This document shows positions 9,115 through 61,443 of a stretch of DNA of 64,000 nt, piece by piece. Position 1 is the first letter of the stretch; each line of letters starts with the position of its first letter. The translations under genes and the position numbers were made by a program. Source of the DNA: a virus. Below the pieces are notes generated by a model. It had not been told where the DNA came from and did not search any database. It saw nothing but the letters and a program-made list of their open reading frames with translations. Where the stretch lies: IMG/VR virus record IMGVR_UViG_3300045988_091501, positions 32,001 through 96,000 of that record; one strand, given 5' to 3'.

Positions 9115-9489
9115 ATGTGTCAACATATGTATTATAAAGATGAAACAGAATATTTTCCAAGGCTGTATTGTAACATTGACGATAAGATATGTATATATGC
9201 TAAACAGTGCTTAAAGGAAAACAAATTCGTACCAAATGGAGATTTATGGAAGGAATGTTACAAGATGATTGAAGATAAAATTAAAGAAATCCCACAAGGC
9301 TCTTATTATGTGCAATCATATAGACCGAATAGAAGTGGTAAATTATTCTTATATGTTGTAATCAATGACCATGTTGAAAAAATACCAACAGAATTAACAT
9401 CTATTGACCAAGATTATATATATCTTAAAGAAGGACTTGACCGATATGAAGTTTCTCTTACGCCTTTTAGGGAAACTAGAAAGAAATAG
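9115..9489 (+). CDS. Cys-rich protein upstream of the MazF-like toxin (candidate non-canonical antitoxin)
   Basis: ATG 9115 follows an AAGGAGTG SD (the track start at 9103 is GTG). 124 aa with four N-terminal Cys (CQH...C...C...C). Its stop lies 1 nt before the toxin ATG. No RHH, AbrB or MazE-like motif recognised. Confidence 0.6.
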   Translation: MCQHMYYKDETEYFPRLYCNIDDKICIYAKQCLKENKFVPNGDLWKECYKMIEDKIKEIPQGSYYVQSYRPNRSGKLFLYVVINDHVEKIPTELTSIDQDYIYLKEGLDRYEVSLTPFRETRKK

Positions 9490-9490
9490 A

Positions 9491-9853
9491 ATGAAGAGGA
9501 AAGCAATAAAACAAGGCGAGGTTTGGATGTGCAATTTACCTAAAGGCGAAGATTCAGAGCAAATGGGTGTACGACCATGTTTAGTAATGAGCTTGGACAT
9601 TAGAAATGAAACAAGTTCAAATGTGTTTGTATTCCCCATAACCCACGCCAAGAAAAAAGACCAACCTTGCCATTATATATTATACAAAGAACATTATCCA
9701 TTCTTTACATATAAAGAAAACACTGTGTTATGTGAAGAGGGTAGAAGTATAAGCAAGAATAGATTAGATAGGTGTATAGGTGTTATCTTTGCAAAGGACT
9801 TAGTTGAAATATTGAAATGCAAAGAATTTGTATTTGTTGAAAAAAATGATTGA
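9491..9853 (+). CDS. mazF: MazF/PemK/EndoA-family endoribonuclease toxin
   Basis: From ATG 9491 the protein reads KQGEVWMCNLPKGEDSEQMGVRPCLVMS...VFVFPITH...NTVLCEEGRSISKNRLDRCIG. This parallels B. subtilis EndoA ([27 protein letters not shown]...AAIT...DSVILLEQIRTIDKQRL). Confidence 0.85.
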   Translation: MKRKAIKQGEVWMCNLPKGEDSEQMGVRPCLVMSLDIRNETSSNVFVFPITHAKKKDQPCHYILYKEHYPFFTYKENTVLCEEGRSISKNRLDRCIGVIFAKDLVEILKCKEFVFVEKND

Positions 9854-9878
9854 CAGCCTTCTTTCTTTGTAGTATAAT
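9850..9878 (+). promoter_or_regulatory. sigma-A-type promoter TTGACA-17-TATAAT inside the late operon
   Basis: TTGACA at 9850-9855, a 17-nt spacer, TATAAT at 9873-9878. About 30 nt upstream of the 9909 gene. Confidence 0.65.
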
Positions 9879-9904
9879 AAGACCATATTAAAGAAAGGAG
9901 GCTG
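9854..9904 (+). promoter_or_regulatory. 15-bp hairpin pairing the promoter spacer with the downstream Shine-Dalgarno
   Basis: CAGCCTTCTTTCTTT (9854-9868) pairs with AAAGAAAGGAGGCTG (9890-9904), with one G-U pair. The loop holds the -10 element. The 3' arm contains the SD of the 9909 gene. Confidence 0.55.
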
Positions 9905-9908
9905 TAGA

Positions 9909-10247
9909 ATGATTAAGAAATTCATTGTGTCTTTATCTTCTATCATTGGTATATCTTGCATTATATACTATACAAGTAAATATTATATTGAAAGACAACT
10001 ATGCTTTACAGATAATATGCTCATTCCTTGGACAATTATATCCTCTTGTATCATCGTTGCCTTAATAGTTGGTTTATTTTCTTTATGGAAAGTAGATAAG
10101 ATAGAAAGACAGAATAATGAAATGAAATCAATATTGCTAAAGTTGACAGAAGATTCAGAAGAATATTATGATTCATTATGTCACCACTTGCAAAATAGTA
10201 GAGAATTAAGTTTAGATATTTTTGACAAAATGCAAGAAAGGAATTAG
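9909..10247 (+). CDS. small membrane protein (2 predicted TM segments)
   Basis: AAAGGAGG SD and its own promoter at 9850-9878. 112 aa with two hydrophobic segments and a charged C-terminal tail. Confidence 0.7.
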   Translation: MIKKFIVSLSSIIGISCIIYYTSKYYIERQLCFTDNMLIPWTIISSCIIVALIVGLFSLWKVDKIERQNNEMKSILLKLTEDSEEYYDSLCHHLQNSRELSLDIFDKMQERN

Positions 10248-10570: not shown

Positions 10571-10589
10571 TCGTACATAGTTTTTCCTC

Positions 10590-10618
10590 TTGACTTTTCC
10601 TCCTTTATATGGTATAAT
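10590..10618 (+). promoter_or_regulatory. sigma-A-type promoter TTGACT-17-TGgTATAAT
   Basis: TTGACT at 10590-10595, a 17-nt spacer, extended -10 TGGTATAAT at 10610-10618. Upstream of the 10649/agrB-like pair. Confidence 0.65.
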
Positions 10619-10640
10619 GTATATATCAGATAAAGGAGGA
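10598..10640 (+). promoter_or_regulatory. 11-bp hairpin pairing the promoter spacer with the downstream Shine-Dalgarno
   Basis: TCCTCCTTTAT (10598-10608) is the perfect complement of ATAAAGGAGGA (10630-10640). The loop holds TGGTATAAT. A T-rich tract runs up to ATG 10649. Confidence 0.55.
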
Positions 10641-10648
10641 TATTTATT

Positions 10649-11110
10649 ATGTTAAGAGAAATGATAATTGATTTTATGTTGTTTAGTTTTGTAGAAGGAC
10701 TTTTATATGCAATGTTCTTCAACAGAGTGTGTAAATGTAAAAAGTTTAATATATTTGAAATCATTGTAATGAGTATAGGAAATTGTGTGGTATTTTGCTT
10801 ATTTCCACCAATTATCTATCAGATATTTATGATGGGCTGGATGGCATTTTGTTTACATCTAAAGAATGGAACAGACCATACAACATTTCAATATGTTAAG
10901 TATAGCTTTTTAGTTATGGTCGGACAGTTGATAACCGAAATGGTATTTGCTATGTTTTATGATTTTGTTTTAAACATTGATTTTTCTAAAAGTTCACCAT
11001 TAACTGTATTTATTATAATGATTCCAATTAGAGCAATACAGTTTATTATTATATATAAGTTAGGAGGATTCAACATGAAGGGTTGGATGGGTGGAGTAGT
11101 TCGTAAGTAA
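10649..11110 (+). CDS. polytopic membrane protein (~5 TM), upstream partner of AgrB-like gene
   Basis: AAAGGAGG SD and its own promoter at 10590-10618. 153 aa, almost entirely hydrophobic. An in-frame AGGAGG-N6-ATG at 11062-11077 could also initiate an 11-aa peptide, MKGWMGGVVRK. Confidence 0.7.
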   Translation: MLREMIIDFMLFSFVEGLLYAMFFNRVCKCKKFNIFEIIVMSIGNCVVFCLFPPIIYQIFMMGWMAFCLHLKNGTDHTTFQYVKYSFLVMVGQLITEMVFAMFYDFVLNIDFSKSSPLTVFIIMIPIRAIQFIIIYKLGGFNMKGWMGGVVRK

Positions 11111-35101: not shown

Positions 35102-35491
35102 TCAAATATATTCTCCTTTTACATGACCACTTAACACACCTTTAGATTGCAGATATTCCATCCATTCTTCAACTTGTTCAAAGGTGATTAAAGCTGGTTC
35201 AAATGTAGGATTTTTGTGAAGCATATACTGATAATCGTAAGGCTGGCAAAAATCTTCATCTAATACATCAATGCGAATATCTGAACCGTCTTTAGGAATT
35301 GATACACTAAATGAAATATCAAAACCTCTATATCTTTTTGTTTGTGGAAATTTAATAGGTCTACAAAAGTACCAACTTGGTTCATAATGATTAGTAAAGC
35401 CAATTTCTTTCATTTCTTCTTCTGATAAAATATGTGCTTTGATTTTAGCGTTTACTCCATGACTATTTACTTCTACTTTTTCATCAAACAT
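35102..35491 (-). CDS. hypothetical protein
   Basis: AAGGAGG SD and its own promoter at 35516-35544. 129 aa. No motif recognised. Confidence 0.7.
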   Translation of the reverse strand: MFDEKVEVNSHGVNAKIKAHILSEEEMKEIGFTNHYEPSWYFCRPIKFPQTKRYRGFDISFSVSIPKDGSDIRIDVLDEDFCQPYDYQYMLHKNPTFEPALITFEQVEEWMEYLQSKGVLSGHVKGEYI

Positions 35492-35515
35492 AAAATCACC
35501 TCCTTTATGATATGT

Positions 35516-35544
35516 ATTATACCATATAAGGAGGCAATTGTCAA
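35516..35544 (-). promoter_or_regulatory. consensus promoter TTGACA-17-TGgTATAAT
   Basis: -35 at 35544-35539, -10 at 35521-35516. Between the nrdG stop and the 35491 gene. Confidence 0.7.
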
Positions 35545-35547
35545 GAA

Positions 35548-36054
35548 TTAATATAATTCTTTTGCTAAAATTATTTTTTCAGATTTGATTGTTTTATTTA
35601 CATCAATAATCCTCTGATTAGAAGAGCCTATAAGATGTAATTTATAATCTTTAAGAGAATCAATAAATTCCCCATCAATAAGATAATCAACAAGTCCTTC
35701 ACGCAAACAATCTCTTGGAACATCTTTAATTATAAGTTGCTCATAGGTGTAACCACTCCATACAAATATTGGTTTACCAACTTCATGCCTCAGTCTTTGT
35801 AAAAACCAATAAAAATGTTCCCCTTGGTCAAATGGTTCACCACCTAAAATAGATACGCAGTCAATATATGGGCTATTACACAAAGAAATAAATTTATCTT
35901 CTATTTCTTTAGTCCATTCTTCTCCACCTTTAAAGTCCCAAGTTTCTTGATTAAAACAACCTTTGCAATGATGAGAACAACCTTGTACAAATAAAGAACA
36001 CGCTATACCAATACCATTTACAACATCCATATCTCTGATACTTGCATATCTCAT
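35548..36054 (-). CDS. nrdG: anaerobic ribonucleotide reductase activating protein (radical SAM)
   Basis: ATG 36054. GIACSLFVQGCSHHCKGCFNQETW carries the CxxxCxxC cluster. It lies directly downstream of nrdD. Confidence 0.9.
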   Translation of the reverse strand: MRYASIRDMDVVNGIGIACSLFVQGCSHHCKGCFNQETWDFKGGEEWTKEIEDKFISLCNSPYIDCVSILGGEPFDQGEHFYWFLQRLRHEVGKPIFVWSGYTYEQLIIKDVPRDCLREGLVDYLIDGEFIDSLKDYKLHLIGSSNQRIIDVNKTIKSEKIILAKELY

Positions 36055-36101
36055 AAAAAACATCTCCTTTCATAGTATATATTATACCATAAAAAGAGAT
36101 G
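36055..36101 (-). terminator. terminator-like hairpin whose loop carries a -10 element and whose 3' arm is the nrdG SD
   Basis: Minus strand: CATCTCTTTTTAT...ATGAAAGGAGATG (13 bp, two of them G-U), followed by TTTTTT and then ATG 36054. Confidence 0.5.
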
Positions 36102-36109
36102 TTTGTCAA
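36081..36109 (-). promoter_or_regulatory. consensus promoter TTGACA-17-TGgTATAAT
   Basis: -35 at 36109-36104, -10 at 36086-36081. Between nrdD and nrdG. Confidence 0.7.
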
Positions 36110-36114
36110 TGATT

Positions 36115-38283
36115 TTATTTAATTTCGTGATTATCTAAGTGAACAAATCTGTGAGCTATTTCATCTGTTCTTCCATCATTCCAAAAATTACTTCCAATAT
36201 AACCGCAAGTACGTCTGGCTACATTCATCTTGCTATGGTCACGATTTTTGCAATTAGGACATTCCCAAATTAATTCTCCATTTTCATCAATAATTTTAAT
36301 TTCACCATCATAACCACATACTTGACAATAGTCAGATTTAGTATTGAGTTCAGCGTACATAATATTATCATAAATAAATTTTATAATATTAAGCACTGCT
36401 TGAACATTATGTGTTAAATCAGCACATTCAATATATGAAATTGCACCACCCAATGACAGCTCTTGAAATTTTGATTCAATGCTTAATTTATCGAATGGAT
36501 TGATTTCTTCAAACACTGGAATATGATAACTATTAGTAATATAGTTTCTATCTTTTCCGTCTAACTTAACAAAAATATCATTACCAAATCTTTCTTTTAA
36601 CTTCTTAGCAAATTTATAAGTAGTGGATTCAATAGGAGAACCGTATAATGAATATCCTAAGTTATCTTGTTTTTTCCATTGCTCGCACTTGTTGTTTAAA
36701 TACTGCATAATTTCAATCCCAAAAGAATGACCTTTATCATTGTTTGAATGTGATTGTTTTGTCATATATTTAACACATTCATATAAACCAGCATAACCTA
36801 AAGAAATGCTTGAATAACCACCGAACAACAATTTATCAATAGGTTCATGTTGATTTAACCTTGCTAATGCTCCATCTTGCCATAGAATAGGTGCTACATC
36901 ACTAGAAGTTCCTAATAATCTTTTATGCCTTAACATTAAAGCCCTATGACATAACTCACAACGGTCTTCTAAAATATTCCAAAATTTATCCATATTTCCC
37001 TCGGAACTAAAAGCAACATCTGGTAAATTGATAGTTACTACACCTTGATTAAAACGACCATAAAATTTATAATTCCCTTGTTCATCTTTCCAAGGGGCTA
37101 AAAACGAACGGCATCCCATGTTAGGGAAACAATTACCTTCTTTTAATTCTTTCATTTTCTTTTCAGAAATATAGTCTGGAACAAGTCTTTTAGCCGTACA
37201 TTGTGCCGATAGTTTTGTTAAATACCAATAAGGAGAATTTTCGTGAATATTATCCTCTTCAAGAACATATAATAATTTTGGAAATGCTTGGGTTACATAA
37301 ACTCCAACTTTATTCTTCATTCCTTGAATACGTTGTTTTAAAAATTCCTCAATAATCATAGCAAGTTCTTGCTTGTATTCTTTTGTTTCTCCTAAGTACA
37401 TAAACACACTTAAGAAAGGAGCTTGTCCGTTTGTCGTAGACATACTGTTTATTTGATAATTAAATGTTTGCACACCATCTTCAATTTCTTTTGTTAAATC
37501 TTCCATTGCATATTTTTCTGCTTCTAAGTTGGTATTCCCACGTTTTATGTATTTATTATATGCAATATCATAACTATATTTAACAAAGGGTGCAAGATGA
37601 GATAAGCTAATGGTGCAACCACCATATTGTGAACTAGCGACTGCTGTAATAATTTGTGTGGCAACAGTGCAAACAGTCAAAAATCTATGTGGTTTATCAA
37701 TACGAACTCCGTTAATAACTGTTCCATTTTGCAACATATCTTCAAGATTGATTAAATCGCAATTATGCAAAGCCTTTTGACCAAAATAATCCATATCGTG
37801 AAAATGAATTATTCCTTCTTCATCGGCTTGTAAAATGTCTGGTGGCATAAGAAACCTTTTTGTAATATCTTTACTTATAATCCCAGCCATGTAATCTCTT
37901 TGAGTTGTAGCAAGTTCAGCATTTTTATTAGAGTTTTCTTTGTTTAAATATTCATTAGTACCGTTTAATAAATTGATTAAATCTTCATCTGTACTATTCT
38001 GAACATATCTTTGATATTCTCTTACTTGTCTATAGCCCTCATATGCTTTTGCAGTATTTTTTTGTTTATATTTAATCAATTTATCAAATACCATTGATTC
38101 AATAGTATAAATTTCTACTTCTTCAATTTGTTTTTGTAATAATTCTTGTTCGATTTCTTCTGCAATTCTTAATGCAATTTTTTCTTTAATGCCTTCTCCA
38201 TATGGCATTGCTTTCATAATCGCGTTAGAAATTTTTTCTTTATTAAAAGGAACTTCCGTACAATCACGTTTAATTACATTCAT
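36115..38283 (-). CDS. nrdD: anaerobic ribonucleoside-triphosphate reductase (class III)
   Basis: 722 aa. N-terminal ATP-cone (VIKRDCTEVPFNKEKISNAIMKA). C-terminal Zn ribbon (CQVCGYDGE...CPNCKN) and glycyl-radical motif RRTCGYIG. Confidence 0.95.
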   Translation of the reverse strand: MNVIKRDCTEVPFNKEKISNAIMKAMPYGEGIKEKIALRIAEEIEQELLQKQIEEVEIYTIESMVFDKLIKYKQKNTAKAYEGYRQVREYQRYVQNSTDEDLINLLNGTNEYLNKENSNKNAELATTQRDYMAGIISKDITKRFLMPPDILQADEEGIIHFHDMDYFGQKALHNCDLINLEDMLQNGTVINGVRIDKPHRFLTVCTVATQIITAVASSQYGGCTISLSHLAPFVKYSYDIAYNKYIKRGNTNLEAEKYAMEDLTKEIEDGVQTFNYQINSMSTTNGQAPFLSVFMYLGETKEYKQELAMIIEEFLKQRIQGMKNKVGVYVTQAFPKLLYVLEEDNIHENSPYWYLTKLSAQCTAKRLVPDYISEKKMKELKEGNCFPNMGCRSFLAPWKDEQGNYKFYGRFNQGVVTINLPDVAFSSEGNMDKFWNILEDRCELCHRALMLRHKRLLGTSSDVAPILWQDGALARLNQHEPIDKLLFGGYSSISLGYAGLYECVKYMTKQSHSNNDKGHSFGIEIMQYLNNKCEQWKKQDNLGYSLYGSPIESTTYKFAKKLKERFGNDIFVKLDGKDRNYITNSYHIPVFEEINPFDKLSIESKFQELSLGGAISYIECADLTHNVQAVLNIIKFIYDNIMYAELNTKSDYCQVCGYDGEIKIIDENGELIWECPNCKNRDHSKMNVARRTCGYIGSNFWNDGRTDEIAHRFVHLDNHEIK

Positions 38284-38488: not shown

Positions 38489-39199
38489 CTATTTATAAAA
38501 TGTATGACCACTTTCATCTGTGAATTGTTTAGTCCAACCATTCCATTCATTAGGACTACAATCACTTCTGAAAGCAACACAACCGTTAGTAGTGTCTTCT
38601 ACCATGTAAGCATACAACAACGCATATACAGTTGAATCACTAATATTATCACGACCATAAGCAAATTGATTCTTTTGTGTAATCAATTCAACAGGATCAG
38701 TTGGAAATTGATCTGATTCAATCCTGTTTAAGATTACATTGGCAACGTTTACTTTACAATCAAAACTTGCTTCATGTGCTTCGGTTTCAATACATTTAAG
38801 CATCATGGTAATTTCACTCTCTGTAAACACATCATAAGGTGTTTCTGGTAAATCATCAAACTCGTAAATGTTGAACAATGCGTTGTAATATAACTGAAAC
38901 CATACATATTTATCTTGGTCTTTGATGCTTTCAATTAAATATAAGAAATGCAAACACTCTTCATTTTCTCGTTCACTTTGATTATACTCCATTTCAGAAC
39001 ATTTGTCAACATATTTATCATTTAGTTCATTATAGTTAATGCTTGACCTTTCAATATCCCCTTGTAAGCTCGTATTAGCCGATTCTAGGGCTTCAATTTG
39101 TCCTTGCTTAGACTTTATTGTATAGCCCATAATCATTAAAATTAGAGTCAATAAAACGATTCCTACACACTGAATAATATTATACTTCTCTATTTTCAC
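38489..39199 (-). CDS. membrane-anchored SleB-type cell wall hydrolase domain protein
   Basis: GTG start follows AAGGAGA. N-terminal TM (CVGIVLLTLILMIMGY) and a coiled region. The C-terminal EAHEASFDCKVNVANVILNRIESDQFPTDPVELITQKNQFAY matches the Hydrolase_2/SleB core. Confidence 0.7.
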   Translation of the reverse strand: MKIEKYNIIQCVGIVLLTLILMIMGYTIKSKQGQIEALESANTSLQGDIERSSINYNELNDKYVDKCSEMEYNQSERENEECLHFLYLIESIKDQDKYVWFQLYYNALFNIYEFDDLPETPYDVFTESEITMMLKCIETEAHEASFDCKVNVANVILNRIESDQFPTDPVELITQKNQFAYGRDNISDSTVYALLYAYMVEDTTNGCVAFRSDCSPNEWNGWTKQFTDESGHTFYK

Positions 39200-41486: not shown

Positions 41487-41749
41487 TTTCTACTCCAATT
41501 CTCTAAATAATTAGCTATTTCTGTTATGTTATTTCTTGATTCAATATACTTGTCTATACTTTCTTGAATAAATTGAATAACAGCTTTTGGGGCACAAGAA
41601 ATTTTTACTGAACTCATATAAGAATCATATGAACGTATTGTAGTCCATAGAAACTTCTTTTTTACTTTTACATCACATTGCACTCCTAAACTATCTGCGT
41701 TAATATTTACTTTAAAAGTATAACCATCTTTCTTTATAATCTTAGTCAT
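41483..41749 (-). CDS. hypothetical protein
   Basis: 88 aa. ATGA overlap with the helicase start. Confidence 0.6.
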   Translation of the reverse strand: MTKIIKKDGYTFKVNINADSLGVQCDVKVKKKFLWTTIRSYDSYMSSVKISCAPKAVIQFIQESIDKYIESRNNITEIANYLENWSRK

Positions 41750-41915
41750 AATATTTATATTTATTCTCCTTCTTTTTATTTACAACTTTAAATCCTTTTC
41801 TTGCTTTATATTTATCACAGGTCTGACATAATTTCTTCTGTTCAGCATTTCTTCCTTTGTCACATTTACCTTTACAAATATAATAGATACAAGGTGCTAA
41901 TCTTTCTTTAGACAT
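41742..41915 (-). CDS. small basic Cys-rich (zinc-ribbon-like) protein, 57 aa
   Basis: Hand translation: MSKERLAPCIYYICKGKCDKGRNAEQKKLCQTCDKYKARKGFKVVNKKKENKYKYYD. AAAGGAGA SD and promoter at 41945-41973. Its stop overlaps the next ATG (ATGACTAA). Confidence 0.6.
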   Translation of the reverse strand: MSKERLAPCIYYICKGKCDKGRNAEQKKLCQTCDKYKARKGFKVVNKKKENKYKYYD

Positions 41916-41966
41916 AAAAAATATCTCCTTTCATTGATATAGTAATTATACCATGAAAGGAGATAT
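41916..41966 (-). terminator. terminator-like hairpin whose loop carries a -10 element and whose 3' arm is the next SD
   Basis: Minus strand: ATATCTCCTTTCAT (41966-41953) pairs with ATGAAAGGAGATAT (41934-41921) in a perfect 14-bp stem. The 18-nt loop contains TATAAT. TTTTT and then ATG 41915 follow. Confidence 0.6.
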
Positions 41967-41973
41967 TTGTCAA
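41945..41973 (-). promoter_or_regulatory. consensus promoter TTGACA-17-TGgTATAAT
   Basis: -35 at 41973-41968, -10 at 41950-41945. Confidence 0.7.
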
Positions 41974-41981
41974 GTAAAAAT

Positions 41982-42437
41982 TTACCATCTTAATTCAAAA
42001 TATTTATTATAAATCTTATTCCATTCTGCTTGTGTAATTCCACCTCTATCATATTTTTCTTCTAAATTATAAAGGCATTGTGCAAGATAACGGTCTGTAT
42101 GCCAATTACTAAATAAAGGCTCATATTCATTGTTGATAAGTACACTTAATTGTCCCCCAAATGTGCTTGATACAGATATTCTACCTTTTAAGTATTGACA
42201 TAACTTGGCTTTGGTCTTATCAGAAACATTGTAGCCACGTTTCTCCATTTCTGTAATGACTAAATTACAATACAATCTAAAATGATCCAAGTCATAATTC
42301 ATAATAGGATTGATAAGAATTTGATTAGTTGCCCCTTTTTCATAAATATCTTTAGCAATAGCAACACATTCTCTTAACTGAGAACACAACTGTTGTCTAG
42401 GTAATACATCTAACAAATCATAATGCCATAATCTCAT
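41982..42437 (-). CDS. pyrimidine-dimer DNA glycosylase (T4 endonuclease V / DenV-like) family protein
   Basis: MRLWHYDLLDVLPRQQLCSQLRECVAI...VITEMEKRGYNVSD parallels T4 DenV (LADQHLMAEYREL...ELIAECLKRGFNIKD). Confidence 0.6.
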   Translation of the reverse strand: MRLWHYDLLDVLPRQQLCSQLRECVAIAKDIYEKGATNQILINPIMNYDLDHFRLYCNLVITEMEKRGYNVSDKTKAKLCQYLKGRISVSSTFGGQLSVLINNEYEPLFSNWHTDRYLAQCLYNLEEKYDRGGITQAEWNKIYNKYFELRW

Positions 42438-43752: not shown

Positions 43753-43935
43753 TTAACCCTTCCATTCACAGTGTAATACATTTTTATGGAAATTCATTGC
43801 ACATTCTTTGCACAATAAAATTTTGGTTGAATGGTCAAGATATTCACCTTCCCATCTAACTGTATATTCTTTTGCCTCATTAAAATCTGTAATTTCTTTT
43901 CCACATTTGTCACAATGATATTTAGTTACTGTCAT
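43753..43935 (-). CDS. small zinc-ribbon protein (60 aa)
   Basis: ATG 43935 follows GGAAAGGAGA and lies downstream of promoter 43967-43995. MTVTKYHCDKCGKEI...LLCKECAMNF. The longer track ORF would begin upstream of the promoter. Confidence 0.65.
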   Translation of the reverse strand: MTVTKYHCDKCGKEITDFNEAKEYTVRWEGEYLDHSTKILLCKECAMNFHKNVLHCEWKG

Positions 43936-43990
43936 AATAAAAATCTCCTTTCCATTTGATACTTGTATTATATCATAGGAAAGGAGATTT
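43936..43990 (-). terminator. terminator-like hairpin whose loop carries a -10 element and whose 3' arm is the next SD
   Basis: Minus strand: AAATCTCCTTTCC (43990-43978) pairs with GGAAAGGAGATTT (43953-43941) in a perfect 13-bp stem. The loop contains TATAAT. TTATT and then ATG 43935 follow. Confidence 0.55.
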
Positions 43991-43995
43991 GTCAA
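43967..43995 (-). promoter_or_regulatory. consensus promoter TTGACA-17-TATAAT
   Basis: -35 at 43995-43990, -10 at 43972-43967. Immediately after the dnaE stop. Confidence 0.7.
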
Positions 43996-43998
43996 GAG

Positions 43999-46900
43999 TT
44001 AATCTATACTTTTTAATATTGTATAATCTCTTAAAATTTCTTCTTGTTCTTCACTTTCAACCCACTTGTCATTATTGTCTTTAACACGTTTATTTTGTGT
44101 TCTAAAAGCAGTTTTAATTATGTCCCCACTCTTACATGGGTGGTCTTCATAATTACGTTTATTTGCCTTAATAAAGGTGTTCTCACCATCATTAACGTGA
44201 TATAAAGTAACAAATGGAGTGTTGTATTGATTTAACTCTACTTCTGATACAATGTAAATATTATCATCTGTTGATTTATCAATCAATTCTGTATAACCAC
44301 TAAGTCCTAATTGATAAGCCATTGTTTCAAGTAATGTAATAGGTTTATACATATACTTTGTAGAAACAAAATCAACAATTCCTTGATAATTATTTAGAAT
44401 ATATTCCATTAAAGAAACATTATCAATTTCTTTGAACATTTTTTCTGTTTCTTTACCACAAAATTGTTTAATTTCATGTATATTTAATCCAAAGTTTATA
44501 CATTCATCTTTCTTTAATTGTTTACATTCTCTTAATCTTTTCATAATAGAATCAACATCATTATAAATATTCCATTGATTTATTACATAATTCACATCCC
44601 CATATTCTGCAAAATAATCTAACTTAAATAAAATATCAATACTCTTTTTATTCAAATCACTTTGTAATAAATCTTTAAAAATAAAGAACAACCCATCATA
44701 TTCATTTTTATGTTGACTCATATTGTATAAGATTTGTGGTGCTACCTTTTGCATATTCTTTATACTTGCCATAGTTTGATTGATACAATTGTTTTCTCTA
44801 TCAATGGAAAATTGTCTATTGTCATCACCAAATGCAATAGGTTTTAATTTGATGCCACGTTTAAGCATTTCTTTCTTTAATGCAGTTACCTTATCTTTGT
44901 CACCTTTGTTAGTATATCTTTGTAATGTTACTTTATAAAATTCTAATGGATAATAAGCCTTTTGCCAAGCAAGTGTAACACTATCAATAGCCATACAATA
45001 AGCATGAGCAGAATTGAAACCATAAGAAGCACTATCCTCAATTACTTGCCATACTTTTTCAGCCATTTTCATAGCATTATCTTTGTCTGTTGTTTCTTTT
45101 GTGTTAAGTATAGCTTGTGCAAAATTAGGAATAAACTTTTCTTTTGCTTGTGTAATCACATAATGTTTCTTTTTACTAATAGCTTTAATGATTGTATATG
45201 TTTCACTCATAGGAAATCCCGCAAATCCTAATACTTTCATTAAATGCTCTTGATATAAAATAAATGAGCTTGAACAATATTGGTCTTGAATAAGGTCATC
45301 AAAAGCCTTTATTCCATAATCAAAATGTTTGCGTTGTTCAAATGTTTTATACATTGATTGAAATGATGGTCTAATACCAGCTACAAATTGTGTCAACTCT
45401 GAAATGTTCTTTGGTTTAAATCTCATAACTTTTTCAGTAGATTTTTGTTGCTCACATTGATTCACACACATTGTATAACCATTAGCATAAATATCCCAAG
45501 TCTTACTATCATTGTCAATCTTAGCAAGCAATTCGTTTACAGATAATGGTTCAATTCCTATCTCTTTATAAATATCATAGGTCAATCCAATAGAATCTAC
45601 AATGAGGTAGTCCTGCTTCAACATGCCGAAAGCATCAATAGTGCCACTTTCAATAACCGCAACGAAAGTTTCTTTAGCTTTATCTCCTTGTGATTCAGAT
45701 TTTACCATGATAACCCCGACTTCTTCTACAACATCAAAGTCTGCGCAAATTGTGCCGCAAGGATGTGCTTTCAAATTATCTACAATTCCCATGTATTGTT
45801 GACAACCATCAATTAAATATCCATATTTTTCTTTATCAACATAATCATAAATATCAATAAATTCTTTTTCATCATCATCTGCGTGTTTTAAAGCATTTTC
45901 ATATTTACTAATTTGCTTTGTTACAGTATTGGCTAATTGTGGATCAAGATTATATGCTCTTGAATACATTTTAAATGCAGATTTATAATGCAATGTACCT
46001 AAAGCCAATAGGTCAAATGTTCCTTCTTCCCCAATTATATCTTTTTGCGCTTGTATAAATGGTTCTCTTGATGATACATTGTGGTCAATGTCTGGCGGTG
46101 TGTGAGAATCTAATACTCTTTCTTTTGTTAAAAATCTTTCAGAATACATAAGCACTGGTGAATTAACTTTATCTACTTTTGTAAATCTAAATAATTTATT
46201 CAAATAACAAGATACGCCACTACCTCTACCACTAGGAGTCAATATCCCACCATATTCATCAATTCCACGTTTCATTATTTCATAAGTATCAATGAAATAA
46301 TCAGCCATGTTACATCCTTCAATTTCGGCTATATCATGCTTAATTTCTTTAATATATTCATCATACTTATCTTTGTTAATATCATTAGATTGCCTTTCCC
46401 ATTCATATCTAAGGATATTCTCAAAAACTTCATTTCTTTGTTCTTGTGTTAAATCACGATATTTTTTAGCCACAGGAACTTTTAATGACCTATCCAATAT
46501 AATATCATCAAATGTAAGTATAATATTAGTATTCTCTATTGCTTCTGTAATTTCTTCATCACTTAAAATTCCTTGTTCTTTAAATCTATTAAAGAATGTT
46601 TCATAACTTGGTAAATCCATATACCAACCTTGTTCATCTTCATAACTAATCTTATTAGATTTTAACAAGTCGTCTCTATCTGCCATTTGTGATTCAGTAA
46701 TAACATGACTGTCAGTTCCAGCTATAATTGGAATGTTATATTTATAATGCAATTCCATAATATGAGCATTTATTTCTTTTTGTGCTTGTGTATTATGAGG
46801 TTGCACTTCAAGATAAAAATCTGTGAAATGATTAAATAATTTAAGAACAATTTCATCAATTTTTGAATAGTCAACTACATTAGCATTATCACCAAATGGC

Positions 46901-47415
46901 AAATCTCTATCATCTATTGTATATTTATTCCAAAAGGCAATACAAGCCGATGTAACGAATACATCATCTTTTGGCAATGACAAAAGAATATCTAAATCCA
47001 TTCTATTCTTATAATAATACCCAGTTTTAAATGACTCATAGATTGCTCTATTTATTTTCTTACGACCATTTTCATTCTTTGCTAATAAAATAATATGACA
47101 ATTACTTGAATCAGAAGAATTTCTGTCTTTTACCCAATATGCTTCTGTACCAAATACGAACTTGATTGGTTTATAATTAGGATTTGATTCAAGATTCTTT
47201 TTATTAAATTTTTCAAGGTCATCATAAATCTTAAAATAATTTCCTTGCCATCCGTGTTCAACAGTTGAATAAATTGTTGGTATACCTTGGTCTGCTGATT
47301 TCTTATATTCTTTAAAATAATCCATAGGCACAAGTGGAGAATCTTTATTATATCTATGTGATAAACTCGTATGTTTGTGATAATTACAAAATGATAAAAT
47401 TTTACAATTATTCAT
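43999..47415 (-). CDS. dnaE: DNA polymerase III alpha subunit (DnaE-like, N-terminal PHP domain)
   Basis: ATG 47415 overlaps the HNH stop. PHP (CNYHKHTSLS...GTDSHV), palm motif HTPPDIDHNV, GMLKQDYLIVDSI, FNSAHAYCMAIDSVTLAWQKAYYPLEFY. These are all canonical Pol III alpha strings. Confidence 0.9.
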   Translation of the reverse strand: MNNCKILSFCNYHKHTSLSHRYNKDSPLVPMDYFKEYKKSADQGIPTIYSTVEHGWQGNYFKIYDDLEKFNKKNLESNPNYKPIKFVFGTEAYWVKDRNSSDSSNCHIILLAKNENGRKKINRAIYESFKTGYYYKNRMDLDILLSLPKDDVFVTSACIAFWNKYTIDDRDLPFGDNANVVDYSKIDEIVLKLFNHFTDFYLEVQPHNTQAQKEINAHIMELHYKYNIPIIAGTDSHVITESQMADRDDLLKSNKISYEDEQGWYMDLPSYETFFNRFKEQGILSDEEITEAIENTNIILTFDDIILDRSLKVPVAKKYRDLTQEQRNEVFENILRYEWERQSNDINKDKYDEYIKEIKHDIAEIEGCNMADYFIDTYEIMKRGIDEYGGILTPSGRGSGVSCYLNKLFRFTKVDKVNSPVLMYSERFLTKERVLDSHTPPDIDHNVSSREPFIQAQKDIIGEEGTFDLLALGTLHYKSAFKMYSRAYNLDPQLANTVTKQISKYENALKHADDDEKEFIDIYDYVDKEKYGYLIDGCQQYMGIVDNLKAHPCGTICADFDVVEEVGVIMVKSESQGDKAKETFVAVIESGTIDAFGMLKQDYLIVDSIGLTYDIYKEIGIEPLSVNELLAKIDNDSKTWDIYANGYTMCVNQCEQQKSTEKVMRFKPKNISELTQFVAGIRPSFQSMYKTFEQRKHFDYGIKAFDDLIQDQYCSSSFILYQEHLMKVLGFAGFPMSETYTIIKAISKKKHYVITQAKEKFIPNFAQAILNTKETTDKDNAMKMAEKVWQVIEDSASYGFNSAHAYCMAIDSVTLAWQKAYYPLEFYKVTLQRYTNKGDKDKVTALKKEMLKRGIKLKPIAFGDDNRQFSIDRENNCINQTMASIKNMQKVAPQILYNMSQHKNEYDGLFFIFKDLLQSDLNKKSIDILFKLDYFAEYGDVNYVINQWNIYNDVDSIMKRLRECKQLKKDECINFGLNIHEIKQFCGKETEKMFKEIDNVSLMEYILNNYQGIVDFVSTKYMYKPITLLETMAYQLGLSGYTELIDKSTDDNIYIVSEVELNQYNTPFVTLYHVNDGENTFIKANKRNYEDHPCKSGDIIKTAFRTQNKRVKDNNDKWVESEEQEEILRDYTILKSID

Positions 47416-47971: not shown

Positions 47972-48005
47972 AACTCATCCCTTATCTCCTTTCTATATTT
48001 ACTCA

Positions 48006-48034
48006 ATTATATCACAAAAGACCACCTTTGTCAA
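48006..48034 (-). promoter_or_regulatory. consensus promoter TTGACA-17-TATAAT
   Basis: -35 at 48034-48029 (in the loop of terminator 48016-48045), -10 at 48011-48006. Upstream of the HNH/dnaE genes. Confidence 0.65.
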
Positions 48035-48045
48035 GTGGTCTTTTT
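48016..48045 (-). terminator. intrinsic terminator after the methyltransferase, overlapping the next promoter
   Basis: Minus strand: AAAAAGACCAC-ttgacaaag-GTGGTCTTTT. The loop is the -35 hexamer of promoter 48006-48034. Confidence 0.65.
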
Positions 48046-48048
48046 AAT

Positions 48049-48978: not shown

Positions 48979-49003
48979 TTTTTATATCTCCTTTCATATT
49001 AAA

Positions 49004-49054
49004 ATTATGTTATTTGTAACATAATCCATCAATTTATGTTAATTATAACATAAA
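49004..49054 (-). promoter_or_regulatory. two operator-like palindromes at the methyltransferase promoter
   Basis: ATTATGTTA-tttg-TAACATAAT (49004-49025) and TTTATGTTA-atta-TAACATAAA (49033-49054). The second spans the -10 hexamer. The first lies between the promoter and the SD. Confidence 0.5.
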
Positions 49055-49070
49055 AAGGAGCTTTTGTCAA
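49042..49070 (-). promoter_or_regulatory. consensus promoter TTGACA-17-TGtTATAAT upstream of the methyltransferase
   Basis: -35 at 49070-49065, -10 at 49047-49042. Confidence 0.65.
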
Positions 49071-49083
49071 GCCCCTTTTGCAA

Positions 49084-55098: not shown

Positions 55099-55281
55099 TT
55101 CTTAATCCTCCTTTAATATAATTTTGTGCGTTAAGCTCCTTTTCTATTCCGCACATGTAGTCACACCCTTACTCTACTGACTACTCACCTCATCAAATGT
55201 TTTTAAGGTATAAACATTTCAAATTAAACTTCGCTTGTTAAAGTTTTGAGTCAATTAAAAGCTACGAAAAGTTTGACTTCA

Positions 55282-55373
55282 TTCATGCAATAGGAATCGA
55301 ACCTATACCTCTCCTAGGAATTGTATGCTCTGCCTTACTTACTTGGCATCTCCTAATATTACACCATACATGA
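55282..55373 (-). ncRNA. structured RNA segment with canonical tRNA T-arm but no resolvable cloverleaf
   Basis: ATAGG-TTCGATT-CCTAT T arm (55290-55306). The flanking TGCATGA can pair with TCATGTA at 55367-55373. I could not fold the intervening 60 nt into D and anticodon arms. Confidence 0.25.
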
Positions 55374-55621
55374 ACTTTAATTATTATCTCGGTTTAATCG
55401 ACCTCACCTTAAACGGGGTTGTTCATCAACTCACATGGAACAGTTCTACCAAATTAAGCTATTGCTTGTTTAACGATACAAGCTACCTCCAACTGCCAAG
55501 TCATAACATATAGCCATGGTGCATTGTAGGACTCTAACCTACATTTCTCTTATAGCGAGCGTCTTTATTAGACTAAATACCTATATGTTTCGCACTGTCT
55601 GTGTACTTTAGACGGTGATAG

Positions 55622-55691
55622 TTGGTTAATTTGGAATTGAACCAAAATTTCCTTTATTAAAAAGGCGTACTTACGTTTATACTATTAACCA
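55622..55691 (-). ncRNA. tRNA-like element with aberrant 5-nt anticodon loop (possible pseudo-tRNA)
   Basis: Perfect acceptor TGGTTAA/TTAACCA, D arm GTAT-AAACGTAA-GTAC, T arm TTTGG-TTCAATT-CCAAA. The anticodon arm is CCTTT-TTAAT-AAAGG. Opening one pair gives a TTTAATA loop with UAA at positions 34-36 and a pyrimidine at 37. Confidence 0.35.
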
Positions 55692-55786
55692 ATTTATATA
55701 TTTATCTATAATCTTTTGAATGATTCGGCATATAAATACATTTGTACCCATTAAGTAACATTTTGTGTTTCCTTTCTTAAATAAAA

Positions 55787-55874
55787 TACGCACTCCGAGA
55801 ATCGAACTCGGCTTTACCTTGTTAGGGCTTACGATTTATAAGATCGTGGCTCTTACCTACTGAGCTAAGTGCGC
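55787..55874 (-). tRNA. tRNA with anticodon UAU (reads AUA) and an unusually long 19-nt variable region
   Basis: Minus-strand fold by hand: acceptor GCGCACT/AGTGCGT (G1-U72), D arm GCTC-AGTAGGTAA-GAGC, anticodon arm ACGAT-CTTATAA-ATCGT, variable AAGCCCTAACAAGGTAAAG, T arm CCGAG-TTCGATT-CTCGG, discriminator A. No encoded CCA. 88 nt. Confidence 0.75.
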
Positions 55875-55980
55875 ATGTGAGGTTTGTAGCTTTCACTACC
55901 ATGTTTTATTTTCGATGGGCTAGACCTCAAAGTAACCATCTAGTTAGGAGCGACCTAACAACTTCTTGCTTTATATATGT

Positions 55981-56009
55981 ATTATACCACACATATTAAC
56001 ATTTGTCAA
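55981..56009 (-). promoter_or_regulatory. consensus promoter TTGACA-17-TGgTATAAT driving the tRNA/noncoding region
   Basis: -35 at 56009-56004, -10 at 55986-55981. About 105 nt upstream of the tRNA 5' end. Confidence 0.7.
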
Positions 56010-61099: not shown

Positions 61100-61128
61100 A
61101 TTATACCATATCAATCAATATTTGTCAA
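61100..61128 (-). promoter_or_regulatory. consensus promoter TTGACA-17-TGgTATAAT
   Basis: -35 at 61128-61123, -10 at 61105-61100. Confidence 0.65.
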
Positions 61129-61368: not shown

Positions 61369-61397
61369 AATTTATTCTCCCTTCATTTGATAAACCA

Positions 61398-61426
61398 ATT
61401 ATAACATAAAAATCCAGTCTTGTCAA
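61398..61426 (-). promoter_or_regulatory. consensus promoter TTGACA-17-TGtTATAAT
   Basis: -35 at 61426-61421 (in the loop of terminator 61408-61436), -10 at 61403-61398. Confidence 0.65.
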
Positions 61427-61436
61427 CTGGATTTTT
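61408..61436 (-). terminator. intrinsic terminator overlapping the next promoter
   Basis: Minus strand: AAAAATCCAG-ttgacaaga-CTGGATTTTT. The loop is the -35 hexamer of promoter 61398-61426. Confidence 0.65.
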
Positions 61437-61443
61437 AATAAAT

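What the first reader, a model, noticed from the sequence alone, without database searches (positions are those of the whole stretch)
41913..41973. Compact terminator-promoter-RBS cassettes: the -10 in the loop, the SD as the 3' arm, the U tract as the SD-ATG spacer
At 41916-41966 a perfect 14-bp stem forms between ATATCTCCTTTCAT, which lies inside the 17-nt spacer of a consensus promoter, and ATGAAAGGAGATAT, which is the SD of the next gene. The TATAAT box sits in the 18-nt loop. TTTTT follows the stem and runs straight into the ATG.

The same design recurs at 43936-43990 (13 bp, perfect) and 36055-36101 (13 bp with two G-U pairs, between nrdD and nrdG). Weaker versions are at 35496-35535 and on the plus strand at 9854-9904 and 10598-10640.

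Incoming transcripts should terminate or have the SD occluded. Transcripts born at the embedded promoter carry only the 3' arm. Overlap of terminator and promoter signals is known in general. I have not seen this precise arrangement, nested and repeated many times in one genome, described.
Basis: seen in the sequence. Interest (0 to 1): 0.7.

Follow-up and report, generated by a model that had tools for sequence, protein, structure and literature searches.

The report
Overlapping terminator, promoter and ribosome site
In about 60 bases between genes, this uncultured phage repeatedly nests a consensus promoter inside an RNA hairpin whose far arm is the next gene's ribosome-binding site, so RNA arriving from upstream should be stopped or kept untranslatable while RNA started at the promoter is translated; this is a compact variant of regulatory designs already known in other phages.

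Summary
Six intergenic cassettes share one layout: TTGACA, a 17-nt spacer holding an anti-SD 5' arm, TATAAT in the loop, the SD as 3' arm, then usually a T-run and ATG. Four are on the minus strand and two on the plus strand.

Each folds at -21 to -28 kcal/mol (0/200 shuffles as stable). Each arm fits its own partner best (1 of 720 permutations). The sense RNA is always more stable than the antisense. T-runs after the SD are specific to these genes (4/6 vs 3/75).

The cassettes are conserved in nine relatives. Most 5'-arm changes keep G·U pairing.

The same layout occurs in unrelated viral contigs and in staphylococcal Herelleviridae. In Kayvirus 515A1, published RNA-seq tables list one such site as both terminator t60 and promoter p59.

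Best reading: a stop, restart and mask insulator. It also acts as a recombination joint like the PeSLs of T4-type phages.

The mechanism is inferred, not measured, in this phage. The parts are known (PeSLs, T4 gene e hairpin, promoter-coupled terminators). I found no explicit description of the SD-as-arm register, so I rate it a new variant of a known kind.

The parts
41913..41973 (-). Class A cassette 1 (the reported site), between a denV-like gene (41982..42437) and a 57-aa ORF (41742..41915). Layout: -35 at 41973-41968; 5' arm at 41966-41953; -10 at 41950-41945; 3' arm/SD at 41934-41921; T5 at 41920-41916; ATG at 41915-41913.
   Evidence: (dG -27.2, z -6.7)
43933..43995 (-). Class A cassette 2, between a PolIII-alpha-like gene (43999..47415) and a 60-aa ORF. 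Layout: -35 at 43995-43990; 5' arm AAATCTCCTTTCC at 43990-43978; 3' arm GGAAAGGAGATTT at 43953-43941; then TTATT and ATG at 43935.
   Evidence: (dG -22.9, z -5.2)
36052..36109 (-). Class A cassette 3, between nrdD (36115..38283) and nrdG (35548..36054). The helix spans 36103-36059 and includes G.U pairs. A T-run and ATG at 36054 follow.
   Evidence: dG -27.6, z -8.4; also called terminator-like by the scan
35489..35544 (-). Class A cassette 4, between nrdG and a 129-aa ORF (35102..35491). The helix spans 35539-35494. TTTT and ATG at 35491 follow.
   Evidence: (dG -21.2, z -5.5)
9850..9911 (+). Class A cassette 5, between a MazF/PemK-like gene (9446..9853) and a 112-aa ORF (9909..10247). The TGA stop of the upstream gene lies inside the -35 hexamer. 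The helix spans 9853-9905. There is no U tract.
   Evidence: (dG -25.7, z -6.4)
10590..10651 (+). Class A cassette 6 (-35 is TTGACT), upstream of a 153-aa ORF (10649..11110). The helix spans 10598-10640. The U tract is interrupted (TATTTATT).
   Evidence: (dG -21.5, z -4.3)
47972..48048 (-). Class B overlap. The terminator hairpin AAAAGACCAC-TTGACAA-GGTGGTCTTTT has the -35 in its loop. Its 3' arm and T tract lie in the promoter spacer.
48979..49083 (-). Class B overlap. The hairpin AAAAGGGGC-TTGACAA-AAGCTCCTTTT has the -35 in its loop, followed by TATGTTATAAT.
   Evidence: (terminator-like hit 49079-49053)
61369..61443 (-). Class B overlap. The hairpin AAAAATCCAG-TTGACAA-GACTGGATTTTT has the -35 in its loop.

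Best explanation
Each class A cassette is a roughly 60-nt punctuation mark that does three things: stop, restart and mask.

RNA that enters from the upstream co-directional gene contains both arms. The pyrimidine-rich 5' arm is encoded in the functionally tolerant 17-nt promoter spacer. It pairs with the purine-rich SD region of the next gene and forms an 18-23-pair hairpin.

Where a U-run follows (4 of 6 sites), the hairpin plus U-run should act as an intrinsic terminator. The upstream mRNA would then end in a protective 3' hairpin just before the next AUG. Any polymerase that reads through produces RNA whose SD..AUG region is locked, with a predicted opening cost of 16-24 kcal/mol.

Host sigma-A/sigma-70 holoenzyme starting at the embedded consensus promoter should initiate about 7 nt after the -10, in the loop or at the first bases of the 3' arm. 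Those transcripts lack the 5' arm and have an open SD (3-9 kcal/mol) on an 18-25-nt leader.

The net effect is that expression of each downstream unit is insulated from upstream transcription and set by its own promoter.

Because the cassettes share sequence, they also serve as recombination joints for gene gain, loss and replacement.

Shown here: the sequences, the predicted folds, covariation, conservation, the T-run association and the indels at cassettes. Inferred: TSS position, termination, translational masking, and any biological purpose.
For: Structure and statistics in the window:
- Folds at all six sites, with 0/200 shuffles as stable.
- 7 detector hits against 0.1 per shuffled window.
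- Cognate arm pairing averages -20.7 kcal/mol against -12.7 for non-cognate pairs. The cognate assignment is the best of 720 permutations. Ten other 11-12/12 promoters in the window show no such pairing.
- The sense RNA is more stable than the antisense in 18/18 cassette variants, mean -22.0 vs -16.1 kcal/mol.
- T-run >=4 between SD and ATG in 4/6 cassette genes against 3/75 other genes, Fisher p=3e-4.
- Predicted SD..AUG opening energy is 15.6-23.8 kcal/mol in read-through RNA against 2.8-9.3 in promoter-born RNA.

Relatives:
- In nine relatives at 75-87% aa identity, 5'-arm changes are C<->U opposite G (five positions) or A->G opposite U (one). One U->C mismatch and one change at a terminal position are the exceptions.
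- Distant relatives (35-41% aa identity) keep the design with different arm sequences and with T-runs.

Other phages:
- The same layout occurs in unrelated IMG/VR contigs.
- It also occurs in Staphylococcus Sepunavirus and Kayvirus.
- In Kayvirus 515A1, RNA-seq coverage steps gave terminator t60 and promoter p59 (initiating TU11) at one such site, and t142/p143 at another.

Recombination role.
Against: - There are no transcript-end or translation data for this phage.
- The stems are A/U-rich near the U tract (3-5 A.U pairs at the base), which may weaken termination.
- Cassette 9850 has no U tract and 10590 has an interrupted one, so termination cannot be the universal function.
- The substitution count in relatives is small: 6 pair-preserving against 1-2 disruptive, roughly p~0.02 by my own estimate. 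C->T is also the commonest mutation in A+T-rich genomes.
- The Kayvirus evidence is short-read coverage steps, not Term-seq. The authors do not discuss the overlap.
- Why an upstream message should be stopped and immediately restarted by a promoter of apparently the same class is not explained by sequence alone.
Confidence: 0.6

Rival explanations
1. Translational mask only. The hairpin exists to silence the downstream gene on long transcripts, as an isoform-specific translation switch like T4 gene e, I-TevI, B. subtilis sigma-B genes or IS10 fold-back inhibition. The T-runs would be incidental A/T-rich SD-AUG spacers, and little termination would occur.
For: - SD pairing is the only feature common to all six sites. 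9850 has no U tract.
- About half of the look-alike cassettes in unrelated contigs lack a T-run.
- The bases of the stems are A.U-rich.
- Precedents are in PMC3014915 and PMC8208050.
Against: - T-runs are strongly enriched at cassette genes (4/6 vs 3/75). They recur in distant relatives.
- The Kayvirus analogues were picked up as coverage down-steps, that is, as terminators.
- The internal promoter here is of the ordinary sigma-A type, not a distinct temporal class as in T4 or sigma-B.
Confidence: 0.12
2. RNase III processing sites. The 18-23-pair helices in read-through RNA are cut by host RNase III, as in T7 and SP82 early mRNAs (recalled from memory: Panganiban and Whiteley 1983). Cleavage would separate the upstream message and either free or destroy the downstream SD.
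For: - Short palindromes around the -10 extend every helix to about two helical turns.
- This extension is not needed for either termination or SD masking.
Against: - The inner palindrome is also present at promoters without any anti-SD arm, so it is not specific to the cassettes.
- No conserved cleavage motif was identified.
- The T-run enrichment is not explained.
- The idea cannot be tested with these tools.
Confidence: 0.08
3. Translational coupling device. A ribosome finishing the upstream ORF melts the 5' arm and exposes the SD. The downstream gene would then be translated from polycistronic RNA only when the upstream gene is translated.
For: Upstream stop codons lie close to the 5' arm at some sites: 2 nt at 9850, where TGA is inside the -35, and 9 nt at 43995 and 35544.
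Against: - At 41973 the distance is 15 nt, and at 10590 it is more than 25 nt. Both are beyond the reach of a terminating ribosome (reach from established ribosome footprint sizes).
- This does not explain the embedded consensus promoter or the T-runs.
Confidence: 0.05
4. A DNA-level element. The inverted repeat would be an operator for a dimeric repressor that shuts early promoters off, or a cruciform, and the RNA hairpin would be a by-product.
For: The repeat brackets the -10 and the start site, where an operator would be effective.
Against: - Half-site sequences differ between cassettes except for the SD core, and each co-varies with its own partner.
- The repeats are imperfect in a strand-specific way. 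G.U pairs appear only on the sense RNA, and the sense strand is more stable in 18/18 variants.
- Unrelated phages show the same design with other sequences.
Confidence: 0.03
5. Recombination module only. The cassettes would be conserved because they are portable joints for gene shuffling, like PeSLs. The arm complementarity would be inherited from a common ancestor cassette, not selected for RNA function.
For: - nrdG is bracketed by two cassettes and absent in 9/9 relatives.
- L009 carries a chimeric cassette.
- In L007 the cassettes are about 97% conserved between flanks of about 62% identity, with different downstream ORFs.
Against: - The arms differ between cassettes and match their own partners, which common descent alone does not give.
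- Unrelated phages have converged on the design.
- A recombination role is compatible with, and not an alternative to, the regulatory role.
Confidence: 0.05

Closest known systems
PeSLs (promoter-early stem-loops) of T4-type phages (Arbiol et al. 2010, PMC2839356; Comeau et al. 2014, PMC4122927)
   Same: - Many copies per genome of a short intergenic cassette that combines a strong sigma-70-type promoter with a stem-loop. The stem-loop attenuates upstream transcription.
[quoted passage not shown]
- An SD and a start codon sit at the 3' end.
- The cassettes flank small ORFans and mediate deletion or replacement, leaving chimeric cassettes. The same kind of event is seen here at nrdG, L009 and L007.
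   Different: - In PeSLs the SD is described as lying at the 3' extremity, outside the stem. The stems are G-run/C-run or similar.
- Here the SD itself is the 3' arm, the -10 is in the loop and the U tract is the SD-AUG spacer, so translation is drawn into the coupling.
- The phage is unrelated to T4. It has a PolIII-alpha-like polymerase, and its nearest GenBank hits are Enterocloster and Clostridium phages at about 33% identity.
Kayvirus vB_SauM-515A1 sites t60/p59 and t142/p143 (Kornienko et al. 2020, PMC7698491, Tables S2 and S3), and the Sepunavirus site annotated 'promoter' in phiIBB-SEP1 but 'terminator' plus RBS in Quidividi
   Same: - The layout is the same. TTGACA is followed by a spacer with the anti-SD arm, TATAAT in the loop, AAGGAGG as the 3' arm, then T7 and ATG.
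- The sites fold as class A.
- They are listed from RNA-seq coverage steps as both a terminator and a transcription-unit-initiating promoter.
   Different: - They are different phages (Herelleviridae) with no sequence homology beyond the shared signals.
- Only one or two such sites appear in those tables.
- The overlap is not discussed in the paper's text.
SD-sequestering hairpins with an internal promoter: T4 genes e, soc, 49 and I-TevI (PMC3014915); B. subtilis sigma-B-dependent isoforms (McCormick et al. 2021, PMC8208050); IS10/IS50 fold-back inhibition of read-through transcripts (from memory: Davis, Simons and Kleckner 1985)
   Same: - Long transcripts from upstream contain both arms and are poorly translated.
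- The internal promoter starts inside the structure, so its transcripts lack the 5' arm and are translated.
   Different: - In those cases the internal promoter belongs to another class (T4 late, sigma-B), which gives a temporal or stress switch.
- They are single loci and are not coupled to a U tract or terminator.
- Here the internal promoter is a consensus housekeeping-type promoter, and the design is repeated.
Promoter-coupled terminators in bacteria (Fletcher et al., bioRxiv 2026, 10.64898/2026.08.19.745784)
   Same: - One stretch of DNA serves both termination of the upstream unit and initiation of the next.
- The window's class B sites (48048, 49083, 61443) have the geometry described there: the stem-loop supplies the -35, the T tract lies in the spacer and the -10 follows.
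   Different: - In that work the termination site lies about 10 bp upstream of the start site. Neither the SD nor translation nor phages are mentioned.
- In class A cassettes the predicted 3' end lies roughly 15-25 nt downstream of the predicted start site, and the SD is part of the terminator.

Membership tests
PeSL-type composite promoter/stem-loop cassette | Strong sigma-70-type promoter in a short intergenic region directly upstream of an SD and a start codon | tested here: met
   Matches of 11-12/12 with a 17-nt spacer at all six sites. Five of the six carry TG before the -10; 9850 has tag. Intergenic regions are 55-78 nt.
PeSL-type composite promoter/stem-loop cassette | Stable stem-loop overlapping or abutting the promoter | tested here: met
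   dG -21 to -28 kcal/mol, z -4.3 to -8.4.
PeSL-type composite promoter/stem-loop cassette | Many copies per genome | tested here: met
   Six class A plus three class B sites in 64 kb.
PeSL-type composite promoter/stem-loop cassette | Indels or replacements between close relatives bounded by cassettes, with chimeric cassettes at the joints | tested here: met
   nrdG lies between two cassettes and is missing in 9/9 relatives. L009 carries a chimera. L007 has gene replacements next to cassettes that are about 97% conserved.
PeSL-type composite promoter/stem-loop cassette | Resident of a T4-type phage, with the SD outside the stem | tested here: not met
   The phage is not T4-like. The SD is the 3' arm. 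It therefore works like a PeSL but does not belong to the elements described under that name.
Intrinsic (Rho-independent) terminator | Hairpin immediately followed by a U-rich tract | tested here: inconclusive
   A T-run of >=4 follows at 4/6 sites and of >=5 at 3/6. None follows at 9850. Only cassette 3 passes the simple terminator scan, because the loops of the others exceed its limit.
Intrinsic (Rho-independent) terminator | G+C-rich stem next to the U tract | tested here: inconclusive
   G.C pairs come from the SD core only. The lowest 3-5 pairs are A.U.
Intrinsic (Rho-independent) terminator | RNA 3' ends at the U tract | not testable with these tools
   There are no transcript data for this phage. 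The only support is by analogy, from Kayvirus t60 and t142.
Isoform-specific translational masking (T4 e / I-TevI type) | SD (with or without AUG) base-paired in the long transcript | tested here: met
   By prediction only: opening energy is 15.6-23.8 kcal/mol in read-through RNA.
Isoform-specific translational masking (T4 e / I-TevI type) | Start site of the internal promoter lies within the loop or the 3' arm | tested here: inconclusive
   This follows from the usual 6-8-nt distance from the -10, which gives leaders of 18-25 nt. It has not been mapped.
Isoform-specific translational masking (T4 e / I-TevI type) | Internal promoter of a different temporal or sigma class than the upstream one | tested here: not met
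   The internal promoters are housekeeping consensus. The upstream units on the minus strand carry the same type of promoter.
Promoter-coupled terminator (Fletcher et al. 2026) | Termination site up to 35 bp upstream of the start site; stem-loop supplies the -35; T tract in the spacer | tested here: not met
   Class A puts the T tract after the predicted start site. Class B sites at 48048, 49083 and 61443 do fit by sequence.
Known RNA family (Rfam) | Match at or above the gathering score | tested here: not met
   Only two tRNAs matched in the whole window.

The most novel reading that the evidence does not exclude
Class A cassettes may be a widespread and so far unformalised class of three-in-one punctuation elements in phages of low-G+C Gram-positive hosts, covering this group, staphylococcal Herelleviridae and many uncultured contigs. 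On this reading, termination, re-initiation and isoform-specific translation are coupled in about 60 nt by using the promoter spacer as anti-SD. The same elements would double as portable recombination joints. This would extend the new idea of promoter-terminator coupling to translation and to virus genome evolution.
Probability: 0.4. Interest if true: 0.6.

Novelty: new variant of a known kind. Interest (0 to 1): 0.5.

Why it matters
If the cassettes work as inferred, a phage can make each small transcription unit independent of its neighbours with no extra DNA. One hairpin would end the upstream message, hide the next ribosome site on any read-through RNA, and leave the message from its own promoter fully translatable.

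- That is a design rule for annotating densely packed phage genomes. At such sites a 'promoter' call and a 'terminator' call are both right. GenBank records of sister phages currently disagree on one such site.
- It is a ready-made 60-nt insulator part for synthetic biology in Gram-positive hosts.
- It adds translation to the recently proposed general coupling of promoters and terminators.
- The conserved cassettes also mark where genes are swapped in this phage group.

Tried and rejected
- Megablast of 3.5 kb against GenBank phages found nothing. The phage has only remote relatives there.
- The SPO1 host-takeover region was scanned as a candidate classical example. Its early promoters lack the design.
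- The Bacillus phage CAM003 hit from the short-query BLAST is a conventional terminator followed by a promoter.
- Rfam gave no family at the cassettes.
No genome-wide frequency or enrichment against a control hexamer could be estimated, so I dropped a planned control scan.
- In that sample only 18 of 82 promoters with CTCCTT in the spacer had AAGGAG nearby. About half of those had extended stems. CTCCTT in a spacer is therefore not diagnostic on its own.
- Literature searches for an explicit description of 'SD as terminator arm with the promoter in the loop' found none in the held library. The library is open-access only, so this is not proof of absence.
- A citation for IS10 fold-back inhibition could not be retrieved. 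It is given from memory.
- The per-base unpaired probabilities looked unreliable, probably an indexing problem in my script. I do not use them; only the constraint-based opening energies are cited.
- GTACATA as a genome-wide over-represented word is rejected: 15 observed against 11.5 expected. Only its placement is notable.

Full report
**1. What is in the sequence**

The genes around the finding run on the minus strand. Read on that strand, the 66-nt gap between a denV-like gene (41982..42437; Pfam Pyr_excise) and a 57-aa ORF (41742..41915) is laid out as follows:
- stop codon;
- TTGACA (41973-41968);
- a 17-nt spacer holding ATATCTCCTTTCAT (41966-41953);
- TATAAT (41950-41945);
- ten bases;
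- ATGAAAGGAGATAT (41934-41921);
- TTTTT;
- ATG (41915).

Free energies are -21.2 to -27.6 kcal/mol, z-scores are -4.3 to -8.4, and no shuffle out of 200 folds as well.

Short palindromes on either side of the -10 lengthen the helices to 18-23 pairs.

A detector that demands a promoter, a stem of at least 9 bp with an SD in the 3' arm and a start codon finds seven sites in the window. Markov-shuffled windows give 0.1. The seventh site, at 48034, is marginal and belongs to another class (section 2).

- The plus-strand site at 9850 is not weak. It has the strongest arm duplex, -25.4 kcal/mol.
- Site 9850 has no U tract.
- The tract at 10590 is interrupted.

**2. Context**

The window is 31.5% G+C. 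It has no close relative among GenBank phages. Its RecD-like helicase is about 33% identical to those of Enterocloster and Clostridium phages.

The minus-strand half carries replication and nucleotide-metabolism genes: a PolIII-alpha-like polymerase, a helicase, nrdD and nrdG.

Printing every intergenic region shows that the phage overlaps signals as a habit.
- Class A is the finding: six sites with the -10 in the loop and the SD as the 3' arm.
- Class B comprises three sites (48048-47972, 49083-48979, 61443-61369). A G+C-richer terminator hairpin carries the -35 hexamer in its loop and places its T tract in the promoter spacer.
- Ten further 11-12/12 promoter matches show no strong spacer-to-SD pairing (at most -10 kcal/mol, against -17.7 to -25.4 for the six cassettes). 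Three of these ten are the class B sites.

**3. Is the pairing selected, and on which molecule?**

Four lines of evidence bear on this.

*Arm covariation.* The arms differ from cassette to cassette outside the SD core, and each 5' arm fits its own 3' arm. Cognate duplexes average -20.7 kcal/mol and non-cognate ones -12.7. The cognate assignment is the best of all 720 permutations.

*Strand asymmetry.* The hairpins contain G.U pairs that exist only on the sense RNA. In 18 of 18 sequence variants from the window and its relatives, the sense strand folds better than the antisense strand (mean -22.0 vs -16.1 kcal/mol). This argues against a DNA operator or cruciform. It argues for a role in RNA that contains both arms, meaning RNA arriving from upstream.

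*Substitutions in relatives.* Nine relatives from IMG/VR have 75-87% helicase identity, and three more loci cover the plus-strand sites.
- At paired 5'-arm positions, six variable positions preserve pairing. Five are C<->U opposite G and one is A->G opposite U.
- One is a U->C mismatch, and one lies at a terminal position.
- By my own rough estimate this is about p=0.02 against neutral expectation. It is suggestive only, because C->T is the commonest change in A+T-rich DNA.

*Distant relatives.* At 35-41% amino-acid identity, L066 and L076 keep the design at several sites with quite different arm sequences. One such site lies directly upstream of the helicase homologue.

**4. Terminator, mask or both**

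A run of four or more T between SD and ATG is found at 4 of 6 cassette genes but at 3 of 75 other genes (Fisher p=3e-4). The T fraction of that spacer is 0.61 against 0.28. The U tract is therefore tied to the hairpin, which supports selection for termination.

Against this:
- the lowest pairs of the stems are A.U;
- one cassette has no tract at all;
- about half of the look-alikes elsewhere lack one.

SD pairing is the only universal feature.

The predicted cost of opening SD..AUG is 15.6-23.8 kcal/mol in read-through RNA. It is 2.8-9.3 kcal/mol in RNA that starts at the seventh base after the -10. For control promoters the values are 2.2-9.2 and 0.5-4.2 kcal/mol. The start sites are inferred from the standard promoter geometry and give leaders of 18-25 nt.

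**5. Experimental analogues**

A BLAST of the 73-nt cassette against GenBank phages found full-length look-alikes in Staphylococcus phages.

*Sepunaviruses.* The stretch TTTTGATAAATCTCACTTTTATGGTATAAT...AAGAAGTGAGGTTTTTTTATG is annotated 'terminator' with the RBS inside it in phage Quidividi. The same place is annotated 'promoter' in phiIBB-SEP1. It folds as class A.

*Kayvirus vB_SauM-515A1.* Starts and ends were called from RNA-seq coverage steps.
- Table S3 lists terminator t60 as TAATATGTTGACAAATCCCCTTAGTTATGGTATAATTATTCTATAATAACTAAGGAGGATTTTTTTATG.
- Table S2 lists promoter p59, which initiates TU11, at the same site.
- t142/p143 is a second class A site.
- t48/p47_1 encloses the -10 without the SD.
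- t69/p68, t194/p195, t198/p199 and t204/p205 are class B.
- Several late promoters sit inside terminator hairpins.
- The paper's text does not mention these overlaps.

This is moderate evidence, by analogy, that such elements both end and start transcripts.

**6. A second role: recombination joints**

- In the window, nrdG is bracketed by two cassettes.
- All nine relatives lack nrdG in the fetched 22-kb loci. Eight of them have a single cassette after nrdD. L009 has a chimera made of the 5' half of the nrdG cassette and the 3' half of the next one, and it still folds at -15.7 kcal/mol.
- In L007 both minus-strand cassettes differ from the window by one or two bases. The 300 nt on either side are only about 62% identical, and the downstream ORFs encode different proteins.

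These are the kinds of event described for PeSLs.

**7. Comparison with what is known**

- *PeSLs.* In T4-type phages these are repeated composite cassettes of a strong sigma-70 promoter and a stem-loop. [quoted passage not shown] They have been shown to terminate and to promote, and they mediate ORF shuffling. Their SD is drawn outside the stem.
- *T4 genes e, soc, 49 and I-TevI.* The SD is masked in long transcripts, and late promoters inside the structure give translatable RNA.
- *B. subtilis sigma-B genes.* They use the same logic.
- *IS10 fold-back inhibition.* This is a further parallel, cited from memory.
- *Promoter-coupled terminators.* A 2026 preprint describes these across bacteria. 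The stem-loop acts as the -35, the T tract lies in the spacer, and 3' ends fall about 10 bp before the start site. There is no mention of the SD, translation or phages. This matches the window's class B sites, not class A.

I found no paper that spells out the class A register. That register has the 5' arm in the spacer, the -10 in the loop, the SD as 3' arm and the U tract as SD-AUG spacer. The searched library is open-access only.

**8. Verdict**

The feature is real, selected, conserved and recurrent in unrelated phages.

The best-supported mechanism is a stop, restart and mask insulator that also serves as a recombination joint. Rivals or add-ons that remain open are a mask-only role, RNase III processing and translational coupling. 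A DNA-level operator is unlikely.

It is a new variant of known kinds rather than a new principle. Its value lies in tying translation into promoter-terminator coupling, in annotation and in part design. Interest 0.5.

Noticed in passing
window 48048-47972, 49083-48979, 61443-61369 (minus strand): A second kind of overlap. A terminator hairpin carries the -35 hexamer TTGACA in its loop, and its T tract lies in the promoter spacer just before the -10. This matches the 'promoter-coupled terminator' geometry of a 2026 preprint and several Kayvirus terminator/promoter pairs.
   Followed up: partly
window 941, 1726, 10573, 11157, 13390, 19070, 30775 (+) and 52867 (-): GTACATA sits directly after a hairpin and 5-20 nt before an SD in many intergenic regions, mostly in the plus-strand half that holds the long ORFs. 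The word is not over-represented overall (15 vs 11.5 expected), but 8 of 15 copies occupy this slot. It may be a late promoter or a processing motif. The copy at 10573 lies just upstream of class A cassette 10590.
   Followed up: partly
window 35548-36054 (nrdG); L009 16213-16275: nrdG lies between two cassettes in the window and is absent from the fetched 22-kb loci of all nine relatives. L009 carries a chimeric cassette, with the 5' half from the nrdG cassette and the 3' half from the next cassette.
   Followed up: yes
L007 7465-7525 and 9772-9832: Both cassettes are nearly identical to the window's. The 300-nt flanks are only about 62% identical, and the downstream small ORFs encode different proteins. 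The cassettes are islands of conservation at gene-replacement boundaries.
   Followed up: yes
L006 13926-16971; L007 14589-17679: In two relatives nrdD is split into ORFs of about 415-425, 144 and 358-363 aa. In the window and the other relatives it is a single 722-756-aa ORF. An intron or homing-endonuclease insertion is possible.
   Followed up: no
window 55099-56009 (minus strand): A 911-nt non-coding stretch lies behind a 12/12 promoter at 56009. It holds tRNA-Ile(TAT) at 55786-55875 and tRNA-Leu(TAA) at 55621-55691. The rest of the stretch is unassigned.
   Followed up: partly
window 9446-9853 (+): A MazF/PemK-like toxin gene lies in the plus-strand half of the window, which otherwise holds the long ORFs. 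Its TGA stop codon lies inside the -35 hexamer of cassette 9850.
   Followed up: no
window 39009-38981 (minus strand): A 12/12 promoter match without TG lies inside the 236-aa gene 38489..39199. It is conserved in eight of the nine relatives. It could be an internal promoter or a coincidence of coding sequence.
   Followed up: no
window promoters at 61128, 56222, 56009, 35030 and the six cassettes: Most strong promoters share an inner palindrome, ..ATATGG TATAAT ACATAT... The upstream half is the Gram-positive TRTG motif. Why its complement is kept downstream is unexplained, including at promoters without an anti-SD arm. It lengthens class A helices to about two helical turns.
   Followed up: no
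L135 3011-3071 (Quidividi MH321490) and L136 3011-3071 (phiIBB-SEP1 KF021268): Sister Staphylococcus epidermidis phages annotate the same 60 nt differently. One calls it 'terminator' with the RBS inside, and the other calls it 'promoter'. Both are probably right.
   Followed up: yes
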